A stretch of 64,000 bases of DNA from Escherichia coli (GTDB lineage Bacteria > Pseudomonadota > Gammaproteobacteria > Enterobacterales > Enterobacteriaceae). The stretch lies in NCBI RefSeq assembly GCF_048403405.1, contig NZ_CP183129.1. One strand, 5' to 3'. How positions within the stretch are numbered: position 1 is the stretch's first letter; each line of letters begins with the position of its first letter. Position numbers: made by a program. Shown piece by piece: positions 58,788-61,700 of the stretch.

Positions 58788-61700
58788 TAGTGTCCTTCGT
58801 GGCTGTAGTAAAAGACCGGTAATCCCAGCTTAAGGCGTAGCGCCAGTAAACGGGCAAAAAAGCCGAATACCAGGGTGGAGATAATTACCACATCATGATT
58901 AGAAACATAGTGTTGCAGCGCGATGTACAGCACGGCGGAGGCAAATGAGACACCGGCATACAATTCTTTCTGGAATACCAGCGGGATGCGTTTACAGAAC
59001 ATATCGCGCAAAACGCCGCCAAATACGCCGGTCGTCACAGCTGCGACAACGGCAATGATCGGGCCGTGTCCCATATCCAGTGCAACCTGTGCGCCAATGA
59101 TAGAAAAGACCACCAGTCCGAGCGCATCGAGCACCAGAAACACTTTGCGCAGGTAAGGCATTACAGGAGCAACGATAGTGGTGAGTACTGCGGCGGTAGC
59201 GACAATAATCACATATTCCGGGTGTTTGACCCAGCCGAGCGGATAGTGGCCCAGCAGAATATCGCGCACTGACCCTCCGCCAATTGCCGTGGCGGTCGCA
59301 ATAATAATTACGCCAAATGTATCCATGCGCCGTCGTCCGGCCGCCAGCGCCCCCGTCATGGCTTCGGCAGTAATGCCAACCAAATACAAAATGTGTAACA
59401 GCATGGTTATCTCCCTAAAAATCTGTCTGGCAGGGTAGCGATTTGTACGCATTGTCACGATTGAGATTTTTTAAGGTGAGAGGAAATTGATAATTTTTAG
59501 TTATGTGAAATCGTTGTTTTCTGTAGCGTAGATGCATTCTTCTGACTTCTTGTCTGAGAAAATACATAAGAAAAAGTAGGTTAAAACTGAGGGGTGGAAA
59601 AGAAAGGTGCAATGTTAGCCATTGTGTTCACTGCACCTGGACCTTGGCTTACGCATCGGGTGTCTCAATCAACAAAAAGAGTTTTTAGTTTCTGCTATTT
59701 TTTCTCTGTAATTTTTACACTGTTTTCCAACTGCTTGATGCTGACCTGCGGGGTCGGCAACTCCTCAGGCATGGTTCCGCCAAGTTCCTGAATGGTTTGC
59801 CTCACCTTGCTACCCACGTCAAAGTGTGTGGTATTAGCTTGCTGTTTTGAATTCACGCCATCCCGCTTGAGTTTTTCTTCTGTTTGGGTAGCTCGAAAGA
59901 GATTAGCCGCCAGTTCTGTTGAACCCATATGATCCAGGATCTTCTGACTCTTTTTCAGCCCCTTCCGCTGATGGATGGCTTTCTGATCTAATCCACCATA
60001 CAGTCCCCGGTAACCATGATTCTGAAATATGGCGAAATCGATAGCTGTCGCTACCCCAGCTTGCTGCGCTGCCTCAACTAATTGTTTGTTATGTTCTTTC
60101 AACTCATTTCTCAGAAAAAGACGCTTTTCGTCTTCACGAAGTTGCCTGAAAGCTTCATCGTCAGCCAGCTCCTGCCGTCGGGTCTGGATAGCAAAATAAG
60201 TTTGTCCTGCCGCAATAACCGGTTTCGCAGGGTCGCCGTTTTGTACTACCAGGTAACAGGCATAGCGGGAGAGTACGATGTCTTTTAATGCTCTTTTGGC
60301 ATTTGAGCCAATTTTGACCATATCGAGGATCTCCTCGAAATGGTCATCAATTGTGTGACCACTATTCAGACAAGCTTCTTTGGCGCGCGTTAATACAGGT
60401 ATAAAGTGACGATACTCTGAATAACCCAGTAGTTTTCCAAGTTGTCTTGCTGACCATTGTTCTGCTCCGTTTGCATTAATCAGCTTTATCTCTTCAAAAG
60501 GTTGATGATGTTCGTTCATTGCCCACTCCATGTGATATCGATTGCAAGGAAAGTAAGTCTACAACTGTGTTTATATACAGTTGTAAGTATCTCACGTTCT
60601 CACTGCGCTGGGCAAAAAAACATCGCAAAATCTGGAGCAGGCACGCAAAACAGAATTGAATGTTGCGGGGAGGAAAAATGCCGCTCTGTTTGAGTGGGCG
60701 GCATTTGTGAAGGCTGAAAAGGAAGAATTGGCGTTACGAGTTGGATCTGTTTGTAGAGTGTTGGCTTCAATGCCGCATTGTGGCTGGTTTCTTTCTAATG
60801 CGATTTTTGATTATGTACACCCTTATGTACACGGTTTTTTCGGGTGCTTTGGTCAGAAGCCATTGTCTACATCCCTCAGGATCGAGGTGTGTAACCATGT
60901 TCAGGCTTGTTGTCCTGCGCGCGCGTATTGCTCGTGAAATTGCTGTACCCAATAGCGATGTCCGAAAAAAACCTCCGTTCTCACATGAAACAGCCATGTG
61001 CAACTGGTAACTGAACAGACTGGTAGACCGTTCGTTCAGTAAATACCTGATATTTCCGCCAACGAGAAATTGCGTTGGCTGGCAGAGTGCAAATTTGCAC
61101 GATGACCTAACCCATTGATTCTTCCACAATCCTCAATTTGAGGATTCCGGATAACACCATTTTTATAGCTCCGATCCCTTCAAAGTGAGGGGTAATTTGC
61201 CAAAACAGAGAGAGCATTACTGTCTCTGGCAATCTTTATCGCGATAACGCCTGAAGTACCCTCTCGCTTCCTCATCCATACCAAGAGCCGAATGAGTCCG
61301 CTTAACTGCCTGTCTTAAATCTCCGAATCTGTCTGTAGTTGCTGGTGGGCGTGCCGCCTTACGGATACATTCAGAGCGTCTGTTTGCTGCATGTTCACGT
61401 TCTTTATCGCCATCTGCCAGCATCATGACTTCTGCCCATCGTGCGGCAGCTCTCCGGTATAGCCCTTTTGACTCCAGCTCTTCAGCTTTCCTGTCCTTTA
61501 TCATTTCTGCCTCTCAGATTATATAGATAAGCAAAAAGGTGTTGGTTCAGTTGGTTCAGTTGGTTCAATTTGTAAAGAGCGTTGTTTTTATTGTGTTTTT
61601 TCTAAAATATTGAACCAACATCAACTCATTTTGAACCAACACAGCCCAGCTCTGAACCAACAACACAGCGATAGATTTGTGATTGGTCTGTTATTTTCTG

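What the first reader, a model, noticed from the sequence alone, without database searches (positions are those of the whole stretch)
61541..61661. Phased array of six 9-bp repeats between divergent PerC-like and RHH-like genes
Three abutting direct copies of GTTGGTTCA are followed, about 45 bp later, by three inverted copies (TGAACCAAC) spaced exactly 21 bp apart, i.e. two helical turns on the same DNA face. Such geometry is typical of cooperative operator or iteron arrays bound by small dimeric DNA-binding proteins. The adjacent RHH-like protein is the natural candidate binder, so this may be an immunity, replication or partition control region.
Basis: seen in the sequence. Interest (0 to 1): 0.65.

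Follow-up and report, generated by a model that had tools for sequence, protein, structure and literature searches.

The report
Second replication-origin unit of a phage satellite
The six 9-bp repeats are real, but they are most likely binding sites for the primase-helicase of an integrated phage satellite (a PICI). They form a displaced, inverted second copy of its replication origin, not an operator for the small neighbouring protein.

Summary
Six exact GTTGGTTCA copies lie at 61541-61661: three abutting, a 43-bp spacer that is 79% AT, then three inverted copies 21 bp apart. There is no other exact copy in the 64 kb window.

The window holds only the end of a ~17 kb EcCIMP1-like PICI inserted between dinD and yicC. 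In near-identical complete elements a second six-copy array of the same design lies ~25 bp after the stop codon of the Zn-ribbon/Toprim/DUF927 primase-helicase (PriRep). That is the published position and layout of a PICI/SaPI origin. The window's array is its inverted twin, 7.0 kb away.

In 77 of 82 loci holding a PriRep gene (78 of 83 counting the 12-kb circular record), an iteron array follows that gene. Where the repeat word differs, all copies change together, and the change tracks a ~33-residue C-terminal segment of PriRep.

The neighbouring 147-aa protein occurs without arrays, arrays occur without it, and it carries its own conserved palindrome at 61715-61746.

Best reading: a PriRep-bound origin unit, one half of a two-part origin that brackets the variable accessory genes, arranged like P4 ori/crr. 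The replication idea is supported; the proposed binder is not. This is a new variant of a known kind, of moderate interest.

The parts
61541..61567 (+). Three abutting 9-bp iterons (GTTGGTTCA x3). This is the outer iteron set of the distal origin unit, preceded by the conserved AAAAGGT.
   Evidence: The same set abuts the primase stop codon in L001, L084 and L085.
61568..61610 (.). 43-bp spacer, 79% AT, beginning with the conserved ATTTGTAAAG. It is the presumed DNA-melting region of the unit.
   Evidence: AT content; the spacer is 43 bp in 17 of 18 distal units and 71-84% AT; the CTTTACAAAT junction is conserved across lineages. The role in melting is inferred from the PICI/SaPI origin model (PMC6092414, PMC9371898).
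61611..61661 (-). Three inverted iterons (TGAACCAAC on the + strand) at 61611, 61632 and 61653, with 21-bp phasing. This is the inner iteron set, facing the accessory genes.
   Evidence: Phasing generalises as 11, 21/22, 32 and 42 bp across loci.
61698..61704 (+). CTGGCTG motif after a T-run, on the inner flank of the unit. The same motif (CTGGCTGGCA) lies on the inner flank of the primase-proximal unit and at the centre of the tandem composite origins. Its role is unknown.
   Evidence: sequence inspection. Not tested statistically.
61217..61504 (-). PerC-family gene, the last gene of the element. It starts 36 bp outside the outer iteron set and runs in the same direction as the primase operon.
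   Evidence: The EcCIMP1_025 homologue silences LEE1 expression (PMC11773190).
61518..61523 (-). Perfect TATAAT on the - strand, 17 bp outside the first iteron. It may be the PerC -10 element, in which case the -35 position would fall on the outer iteron.
   Evidence: Read from the sequence. The consensus promoter scan found nothing at its threshold, so this is only a lead.
61715..61746 (+). Palindromic element GTATAACAGTGTTATACAGTGGTATACTGTAT, made of two overlapping inverted repeats. It is the likely promoter/operator of ORF147 and travels with that gene independently of the iteron array.
   Evidence: it is conserved upstream of ORF147 homologues in L010, L013, L032 and L034, while everything further upstream is unrelated.
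61776..62219 (+). ORF147 (151 aa if it starts at 61764). The N-terminus may be RHH/Arc-like, and the C-terminal part is a confidently modelled helical domain. It is an accessory gene at the variable spot just inside the distal unit.
   Evidence: Presence and absence across loci.
60810..60821 (+). ATTATGTACACC, a 12-bp direct repeat also found next to the integrase gene. It is the probable att core marking the dinD-side end of the element, and lies among TGTACA-type repeats.
   Evidence: L002 15317 and 31423; window 60810. This is the longest shared word only, and the exact boundary is not proven.

Best explanation
The array is one complete iteron origin unit of a phage-inducible chromosomal island (PICI) of the EcCIMP1 type, integrated between dinD and yicC. 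The unit has two opposed sets of three 9-bp iterons flanking a 43-bp AT-rich stretch.

Its binder is most likely the element's own fused primase-helicase, PriRep (919 aa; Zn-ribbon, Toprim and DUF927 domains). PriRep would read the 9-mer through a short C-terminal segment at about residues 875-908.

A canonical sister unit sits ~25 bp after the PriRep stop codon. The window's unit is its inverted copy, 7.0 kb away at the far end of the element. The two units bracket the variable accessory genes with their spaced iterons facing inward.

Proposed mechanism: after helper-phage induction and excision, PriRep hexamers assemble on the phased iterons, melt the AT-rich spacer and load themselves as helicase-primase. 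The distal unit acts either as a second firing site or as a cis-acting partner of the proximal unit, as crr and ori do in satellite phage P4. Because the outer iterons lie at the likely PerC promoter, PriRep occupancy may also affect PerC transcription.

Shown here: the sequence anatomy, the sister array, its conservation across lineages, covariation with the PriRep C-terminus, and independence from ORF147 and PerC. Inferred: actual binding, melting, and any contribution of the distal unit to replication.
For: (1) A sister array of identical design lies ~25 bp 3' of the PriRep stop in L001, L002, EcCIMP1 (L084) and a 12-kb circular record (L085).

(2) 77 of 82 loci holding a PriRep gene have an iteron array 24-48 bp after the stop codon; with L085 the count is 78 of 83.

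(3) This matches the published PICI/SaPI origin. [quoted passage not shown] SaPI Rep binds 6-12 iterons through a C-terminal winged helix, with at least two iterons on each side in opposite directions (PMC9371898).

(4) The PriRep helicase part matches a SaPI 'pathogenicity island protein' structure (8tch, E=5e-12) and the Cch helicase (5dgk). Pfam finds Zn_Ribbon_Prim, Toprim_3 and DUF927.

(5) The repeats change in concert. Six variant words (GAGACAACA, TGAACCACC, TGAACCGA, TAACCCGT, TGAACCCG, TGAACCACG) replace every copy while positions and spacing are kept.

(6) The word co-varies with PriRep. L017 and L018 are 95-100% identical except for the last ~100 residues (46-65%), and their words differ. 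In residues 875-908, canonical pairs average 98% identity, while each variant is 41-79% identical to its nearest canonical neighbour although the helicase core stays 87-99% identical. SGRGY goes with AACCAAC, and SADG(K/Q)(K/R)F goes with AACCAC(C/G) in two different primase backgrounds.

(7) Selection acts on the iterons. The two units are identical at 54 of 54 iteron bases but at only 28 of 43 spacer bases (Fisher p=1e-6). Distal units in lineages with 67-100% PriRep identity keep their orientation, their 43-bp AT-rich spacer (17 of 18) and the CTTTACAAAT junction, although the DNA between the units is unrelated.

(8) In relatives such as L022, L016 and L067 the two units abut as one 260-340-bp quasi-palindrome 3' of PriRep, and the second half of L022 matches the window's array motif for motif.

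(9) The P4 record shows the same two-part layout: crr iterons immediately 3' of the alpha gene and ori iterons 4.7 kb away in a divergent intergenic region.

(10) A whole element with both units is deposited as a 12,152-bp circular molecule.
Against: No binding or replication experiment exists for this element. The EcCIMP1 paper does not mention an origin or iterons.

The PriRep C-terminal domain could not be shown to be a winged helix. The AlphaFold model had pLDDT 48, and a profile search of the PDB found nothing.

The covariation is correlative. The variant elements also differ in other genes; for example, L017 and L018 are only ~75-88% identical in DNA. Another element-encoded protein is therefore not formally excluded.

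The window's unit fails the usual positional criterion of lying immediately 3' of rep. Many relatives manage with a single proximal unit, so the distal unit may be dispensable or may serve control rather than initiation. In many tandem composites the second-half spacer is GC-rich at 26-29% AT, which shows that a second unit does not always keep a meltable centre.
Confidence: 0.75

Rival explanations
1. The array is bound by PriRep but works as a control array rather than an initiation site. The distal unit would titrate or 'handcuff' the initiator to limit replication, as the extra iteron clusters incA of P1 and incC of F do. It might also act as a PriRep-dependent operator for the PerC promoter and the divergent accessory promoter.
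For: The array lies in a divergent promoter region. A perfect TATAAT for PerC lies 17 bp outside the outer iteron. Many relatives replicate with only a proximal unit. In tandem composites the second half often has a GC-rich spacer, as expected for a binding-only array. The role of extra iteron clusters in P1 and F is stated from my own knowledge and was not checked here.
Against: Every split-type distal unit keeps the full origin design: opposed iteron sets and a 43-bp spacer that is 71-84% AT, with a conserved junction. A titration site would not need these. The promoter scan found no consensus promoter. This rival overlaps with the best explanation rather than excluding it.
Confidence: 0.17
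2. One reading: the six repeats are an operator bound cooperatively by the adjacent 147-aa RHH-like protein, controlling immunity, replication or partition.
For: The array is adjacent to the gene and divergent from it. The ORF147 N-terminus is compatible with a beta-alpha-alpha RHH fold, and one homologue is named 'Arc-like' by a source. The repeats are helically phased.
Against: ORF147 homologues at 70-77% identity occur with no array nearby in L010, L013, L014, L032 and L034, and in L032 and L034 the element's repeat word is different. Distal arrays with exact 9-mers occur with no ORF147 homologue in the locus in L003, L004, L006 and L009, and with none beside the array in EcCIMP1; other lineages also have distal units without it. 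The identical array 3' of the primase gene has no ORF147 beside it. ORF147 has its own conserved palindrome at 61715-61746. It has no Pfam hit and no significant fold hit.
Confidence: 0.03
3. The distal array is a functionless duplicate or a recombination scar, for example left when accessory DNA was inserted into a once-contiguous palindromic origin.
For: Relatives have the two units adjacent, so insertion of accessory DNA between them is a plausible origin of the split arrangement.
Against: All 54 iteron bases are intact while the spacer has diverged at 15 of 43 positions. Distal units persist in several lineages whose intervening DNA is unrelated, and they keep spacer length, AT content and orientation. 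EcCIMP1 and the 12-kb circular element keep 6 of 6 exact copies in both units.
Confidence: 0.03
4. The array is a packaging (pac or cos-like) or other helper-phage recognition site near the end of the element.
For: It lies ~0.7 kb from the element's end. The packaging signals of EcCIMP1-type PICIs are unknown (PMC11773190).
Against: The same word forms the canonical origin 3' of rep and co-varies with PriRep. No related sequence was found in 50,697 phage records apart from one weak Klebsiella hit. A P22-like helper would therefore not carry a matching site.
Confidence: 0.02

Closest known systems
PICI/SaPI replication origin (Rep or Pri-Rep with iteron ori), e.g. EcCICFT073, SaPI1, SaPI5 and SaPIbov1
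   Same: Two opposed sets of short iterons flank an AT-rich centre. The initiator is a self-loading helicase, here fused to a primase as in SaPI5 PriRep, and its helicase part matches a SaPI protein structure (8tch). A canonical unit sits immediately 3' of the initiator gene. Specificity lies in the initiator's C-terminus. The host element has int, AlpA and pri-rep, and carries PerC as accessory cargo.
   Different: The window's unit is not 3' of rep. [quoted passage not shown] The iterons are 9 bp long; the SaPI paper describes its iterons as penta- or hexanucleotides (PMC9371898), and EcCICFT073 iterons were not examined here. I found no description of a duplicated origin that brackets the cargo in the papers I could search.
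Satellite phage P4 ori + crr, bound by the alpha primase-helicase
   Same: Two clusters of the same short iteron lie several kb apart. One is immediately 3' of the primase-helicase gene, and the other is in a divergent intergenic region. The initiator has a primase-helicase-DNA-binding layout (PMC2777425). The host is also an enterobacterial phage satellite.
   Different: P4 alpha is an SF3/D5-type helicase with a solved winged-helix origin-binding domain (1KA8). PriRep here is DUF927/SaPI-Rep-like and shows no detectable sequence similarity to that domain. The P4 iteron is the 8-mer TGTTCACC, and crr is a 120-bp direct duplication rather than an inverted twin. That alpha binds both sites and that both are required in cis is stated from my own knowledge (Flensburg & Calendar 1987; Ziegelin et al. 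1993) and was not checked here.
EcCIMP1, an E. coli PICI mobilised by the P22-like phage Kapi1 (PMC11773190)
   Same: It has the same gene set and order: int, AlpA, PM1773-like, AntA/B, DUF4222, Ash, PriRep, DUF2824 plus P22-type ejection proteins, and PerC. It also has both six-copy arrays in the same positions.
   Different: It is integrated at tRNA-Thr between proA and yagU rather than between dinD and yicC. It has no ORF147 beside the distal array. The paper does not describe an origin.
Iteron plasmids with an extra control array (P1 incC/incA, F ori2/incC)
   Same: The same iteron word occurs in two clusters associated with one initiator gene.
   Different: Those control arrays lack an AT-rich unwinding centre and opposed iteron sets. 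Their initiators are RepA/RepE-type winged-helix proteins, not helicases. This comparison rests on my own knowledge and was not tested.

Membership tests
PICI/SaPI-type iteron origin | At least two iterons on each side of an AT-rich region, pointing in opposite directions (PMC9371898, PMC6092414) | tested here: met
   Three plus three exact 9-mers in opposite orientation flank a 43-bp spacer that is 79% AT.
PICI/SaPI-type iteron origin | Located immediately 3' of the rep / pri-rep gene | tested here: not met
   The window's array is 7,015 bp beyond the proximal array and is followed by PerC. The sister array, outside the window, meets this criterion at ~25 bp after the PriRep stop. The window's array is therefore filed as a displaced second unit, not as the canonical ori.
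PICI/SaPI-type iteron origin | The iteron sequence is cognate to the C-terminal DNA-binding domain of the element's own Rep | tested here: inconclusive
   There is strong covariation between the iteron word and PriRep residues ~875-908. No binding assay exists, and the fold of the domain was not established.
PICI/SaPI-type iteron origin | Supports Rep-dependent autonomous replication | not testable with these tools
   There is only circumstantial support: a complete element with both units is deposited as a 12,152-bp circular molecule.
Phage-inducible chromosomal island (host element) | Tyrosine integrase, AlpA-type regulator and pri-rep replicon; ~10-20 kb; specific att site; no full set of phage structural or lysis genes; mobilised by a helper phage | tested here: met
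   Annotation and PHROG hits confirm the gene set. An att repeat was found. The close relative EcCIMP1 is experimentally excised and transferred by Kapi1 (PMC11773190). One caveat: the element carries P22-type ejection-protein genes. Mobilisation of this particular copy was not tested.
P4 ori/crr two-part origin | Two clusters of one iteron word, one immediately 3' of the primase-helicase gene and one several kb away | tested here: met
P4 ori/crr two-part origin | The initiator is a P4 alpha homologue (SF3 helicase plus 1KA8-type winged helix) | tested here: not met
   Pfam finds DUF927, not D5/P4-alpha domains. The PDB sequence and profile searches find SaPI and Cch helicases and no 1KA8. The relationship is an analogy, not membership.
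P4 ori/crr two-part origin | Both clusters are required in cis for replication | not testable with these tools
   This needs replicon deletion assays.
RHH (Arc/CopG/MetJ-type) repressor and its operator | The operator co-occurs with, and is specific to, the adjacent RHH gene | tested here: not met
   The array and ORF147 occur independently. ORF147 instead keeps a different conserved palindrome at 61715-61746.
RHH (Arc/CopG/MetJ-type) repressor and its operator | The neighbouring protein has an RHH fold | tested here: inconclusive
   There is no Pfam hit. The model shows an N-terminal coil and two helices with pLDDT 53-70. CopG and VapB appear only at Foldseek E-values of 3-10.

The most novel reading that the evidence does not exclude
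In a widespread subfamily of enterobacterial PICIs the replication origin may be truly two-part. Two inverted, complete PriRep origin units would synapse by DNA looping through PriRep oligomers to fire replication. Because they bracket the accessory-gene region, they would also serve as conserved homology arms, so that whole cargo cassettes (ejection proteins, toxin-antitoxin genes, defence genes) can be exchanged between any PICIs sharing the same Rep specificity. The origin would then double as the boundary of a cargo-exchange hotspot. The short PriRep segment at residues 875-908 would provide a readable recognition code for 9-bp iterons.
Probability: 0.25. Interest if true: 0.6.

Novelty: new variant of a known kind. 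Interest (0 to 1): 0.45.

Why it matters
PICIs spread virulence and defence genes at high frequency, and their replication is needed for efficient packaging. For the EcCIMP1-type PICIs no origin has been described. The intergenic region holding the array is present at 80% coverage or more in 334 of 5,426 complete E. coli genomes.

This analysis does four things. It places the origin. It shows that the origin exists as two inverted units bracketing the variable cargo. It nominates the binder and a ~33-residue specificity segment, with natural variants that amount to a ready-made swap experiment. It also gives a direct test of whether a P4-like ori/crr arrangement has arisen independently with a SaPI-Rep-type initiator.

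For annotation, the result warns against assigning a repeat array to the nearest small DNA-binding-looking gene.

Tried and rejected
- AlphaFold model of the PriRep C-terminal 150 residues from a 32-sequence alignment: mean pLDDT 47.9, too poor for a fold search. It was not used.
- Profile search of that domain against PDB sequences: no hit at E<=10. A winged-helix identity therefore remains unproven.
- ORF147: no Pfam hit. The model has pLDDT 72. The Foldseek PDB search gave no hit at E<=0.001.
- Consensus promoter and terminator scan of 61150-61850: nothing found.
- Rfam scan of 60500-64000: no family.
- PADLOC on the neighbouring and accessory proteins: nothing relevant.
- Phage collection: the array is absent from 50,697 phage records except one weak Klebsiella hit. 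A helper-phage origin for the site is unlikely.
- LexA-box reading of the ORF147 palindrome: rejected on inspection, because there is no CTGT-N8-ACAG.
- PerC as the binder: rejected. Distal units in other lineages have no PerC beside them, and in tandem-type elements PerC lies 0.5-1 kb from the origin.
- One paper search failed because a term was too short. The primary P4 replication papers are not in the searchable library.
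Full report
OBSERVATION

The window sequence and an exact pattern search confirm six exact copies of GTTGGTTCA. Three abut on the + strand at 61541, 61550 and 61559. Three lie on the - strand at 61611, 61632 and 61653, spaced exactly 21 bp apart. The two sets are separated by 43 bp (61568-61610), and this spacer is 79% AT against 50.8% for the window. There is no other exact copy in the 64 kb window, and the one-mismatch matches elsewhere are at chance level. A PerC-family gene lies at 61217-61504 on the - strand, and a divergent 147/151-aa ORF ends at 62219 on the + strand. 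No Rfam family, consensus promoter or terminator overlaps the array.

CONTEXT

The window is E. coli chromosome, running ligB-yicG-dinD. From about 60810 onward it holds one end of an integrated element that runs off the window. In complete genomes the element is ~17 kb and lies between dinD and yicC. Its genes, in order, are:
- tyrosine integrase;
- AlpA-type regulator;
- PM1773-like protein;
- AntA/B antirepressor;
- DUF4222 protein;
- Ash;
- several small ORFs;
- a 919-aa protein with Zn-ribbon-primase, Toprim and DUF927 domains (PriRep);
- DUF2824 and P22-type ejection proteins;
- three small ORFs, including ORF147;
- PerC.

The same gene set defines EcCIMP1, a PICI shown experimentally to be excised and transferred by the P22-like phage Kapi1 (PMC11773190). 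That paper says nothing about an origin or iterons.

THE SISTER ARRAY

Searching the 9-mer in the near-identical complete locus L001 revealed a second six-copy array. It lies ~25 bp after the PriRep stop codon and 7,015 bp from the first array, outside the window. The same arrangement is present in:
- L002;
- EcCIMP1 itself, with 12 exact copies against 0.24 expected;
- a 12,152-bp record deposited as a circular plasmid, which is in fact a whole PICI of this type.

The two arrays align when one is reverse-complemented. Both read AAAAGGT, three abutting iterons, ATTTGTAAAGAG, an AT-rich stretch, TATTGAACCAACA, then further phased iterons. Their flanks are unrelated. All 54 iteron bases are identical between the two arrays, against 28 of 43 spacer bases (Fisher p=1e-6).

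RELATIVES

Eighty IMG/VR loci with PriRep homologues at 52-99% identity were fetched. Together with L001 and L002, 77 of 82 loci have an iteron array starting 24-48 bp after the stop codon, whether or not PerC or ORF147 homologues are present. With the circular record L085 the count is 78 of 83. The five most distant loci (52-53% identity) showed no such array. Three layouts occur:
- a single proximal unit;
- a 260-340-bp tandem composite in which two inverted units abut, forming a quasi-palindrome with a CTGGCTGGCA-type centre (for example L016, L022, L067);
- a split layout like the window's, in which the second unit lies 4.6-9.6 kb away.

The second half of the L022 composite matches the window's array motif for motif. 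Split-type distal units occur in several primase lineages (67-100% identity). They always have the spaced iterons facing inward and the abutting set facing outward. Their spacer is 43 bp in 17 of 18 cases and 71-84% AT, and the CTTTACAAAT junction is conserved. The DNA between the two units is unrelated between lineages, with 0-20% shared. Within the E. coli group the most variable spot lies just inside the distal unit.

WHO BINDS

Six variant repeat words were found: GAGACAACA, TGAACCACC, TGAACCGA, TAACCCGT, TGAACCCG and TGAACCACG. In each case every copy in both halves carries the variant, while the layout is unchanged. This indicates co-evolution with a specific binder encoded by the element.

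PriRep alignments point to its C-terminus:
- L017 and L018 are 95-100% identical except for the last ~100 residues (46-65%), and their repeat words are unrelated.
- Over all pairs, helicase-domain identity is the same for same-word and different-word pairs (82.1% against 81.8%), but C-terminal identity differs (74.9% against 57.1%).
- The signal concentrates in residues ~875-908 (TPPxSGRGYQRKS-PRIxGRQINVYVL). Canonical pairs at matched background divergence average 98% identity there (minimum 76%). Each variant is only 41-79% identical to its nearest canonical neighbour, although the helicase core stays 87-99% identical.
- SADG(K/Q)(K/R)F replaces SGRGY in two different primase backgrounds (L018 and L067), and both use TGAACCAC(C/G).
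- A Klebsiella capsid-forming PICI whose DUF927 Rep carries the canonical motif has 11 exact GTTGGTTCA copies 3' of rep.

The helicase part of PriRep matches a SaPI protein structure (8tch, E=5e-12) and the SCCmec Cch helicase (5dgk). SaPI Reps are self-loading helicase-initiators whose C-terminal winged helix binds iterons located just downstream of rep, around an AT-rich centre (PMC9371898). Gram-negative PICIs have the same origin organisation, and it was functionally tested for EcCICFT073 (PMC6092414).

I could not confirm the fold of the PriRep C-terminus. The model had pLDDT 48 and the PDB profile search found nothing.

ORF147 AND PerC

ORF147 homologues at 70-77% identity occur with no array nearby (L010, L013, L014, L032, L034). 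In L032 and L034 the element uses a different repeat word. What travels with ORF147 instead is a ~32-bp palindromic element directly upstream, GTATAACAG(C/T)GTTATACAGTGGTATACTGTAT, at window 61715-61746. Everything further upstream is unrelated.

Conversely, distal arrays with exact 9-mers exist with no ORF147 homologue in the locus (L003, L004, L006, L009) or none beside the array (EcCIMP1), and other lineages also have distal units without it.

PerC follows the distal unit only in the E. coli group. Elsewhere it lies 0.5-1 kb from a tandem origin or is absent.

ORF147 may well be an RHH-type regulator, but of its own promoter, not of the 9-mers.

MECHANISM

Taken together, the window's array is a complete PICI-type origin unit, cognate to PriRep and placed at the far end of the accessory region as the inverted twin of the canonical unit 3' of PriRep.

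The closest architectural precedent is satellite phage P4. Its record annotates the crr iterons immediately 3' of the alpha primase-helicase gene and the ori iterons 4.7 kb away in a divergent intergenic region. P4 alpha has a primase-helicase-winged-helix layout (PMC2777425). PriRep is not an alpha homologue, so this is convergence in layout, not family membership.

I propose that PriRep hexamers assemble on the phased iterons, melt the 43-bp AT-rich spacer and self-load. The distal unit would be either a second firing site or a cis-acting partner of the proximal unit.

A control role for the distal unit is a real alternative. It could titrate or handcuff the initiator, or place the PerC promoter under PriRep control; a perfect TATAAT lies 17 bp outside the outer iteron. 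This alternative is not mutually exclusive with the main proposal. The sequence data cannot separate these roles.

VERDICT

The kind of feature is known (PICI/SaPI origin; P4 ori/crr). The variant found here is a duplicated, inverted origin unit that brackets the variable cargo in EcCIMP1-type PICIs, together with a mapped specificity segment. I did not find this variant described in the papers I could search.

Noticed in passing
window 61715-61746: A palindromic element made of two overlapping inverted repeats (GTATAAC-N3-GTTATAC and TATACAGT-N5-ACTGTAT) lies directly upstream of ORF147. It is conserved with that gene in unrelated contexts and is probably its autoregulatory operator/promoter.
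   Followed up: partly
window 63392-64000 (continues in L001 17652-22310): The satellite carries a cassette of P22-type virion genes: DUF2824/gp14-like and gp7-, gp20- and gp16-like DNA ejection proteins. This is unusual for a PICI. EcCIMP1 has the same genes, and its helper phage is P22-like. Their role is unknown; it could be matching the helper's ejection machinery, interference, or packaging.
   Followed up: partly
window 61698-61704; L001 around 22890 (original coordinates); centres of the composite origins in L016, L017, L018, L022, L032, L033 and L061: A T-run followed by a CTGGCTGGCA-like motif recurs on the inner flank of origin units and at the centre of tandem composite origins. It could be a priming or host-factor site. 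It was not tested statistically.
   Followed up: no
L085 (NZ_CP148430.1, whole record) and L086 (NZ_CP069874.1): Two records deposited as small circular 'plasmids' are whole PICIs. One is a 12.15-kb EcCIMP1-type element with both origin units and only ~1.8 kb between them. The other is a 16-kb Klebsiella capsid-forming PICI with 11 GTTGGTTCA iterons 3' of its DUF927 rep gene. Both are typed 'non-mobilizable' plasmids in PLSDB.
   Followed up: partly
window 60806-60835 and L002 31390-31445: Clusters of (A)TGTACA(C/T) words lie at both ends of the element around the 12-bp direct repeat ATTATGTACACC. They are probably integrase arm or core sites. The exact att boundaries were not determined.
   Followed up: partly
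window 24422-27922: GATGGTTCA recurs on the + strand at intervals of 291, 582 or 873 bp (25586, 25877, 26750, 27332, 27914). This indicates a gene with ~97-aa tandem repeats, unrelated to the iterons.
   Followed up: no
window 62526-62906 and 60918-60946: CGCGCGCGTA(C/T)TG-type repeats occur, both direct and as a palindrome at 62526-62537. They lie in and around the short ORFs between ORF66 and ORF139, with one copy near the element's end. Their nature is unknown.
   Followed up: no
L001 12437-14853: In the 99.9%-identical genome NZ_OZ040716 an IS66-family element (ISEc23) lies between yicG and the PICI end, where dinD sits in the window.
   Followed up: no
L004 (IMG/VR contig 2617270975_000009): Here the distal-type unit with PerC lies ~12 kb upstream of the primase stop rather than downstream. 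This could reflect a circularly permuted contig or tandem elements.
   Followed up: no
PQ569648.1 (Klebsiella phage P12620-1), 100970-101087: This is the only phage record with similarity to the array region (74% over 120 bp), in a 106-kb record. It may contain a PICI-like replicon or a related origin.
   Followed up: no
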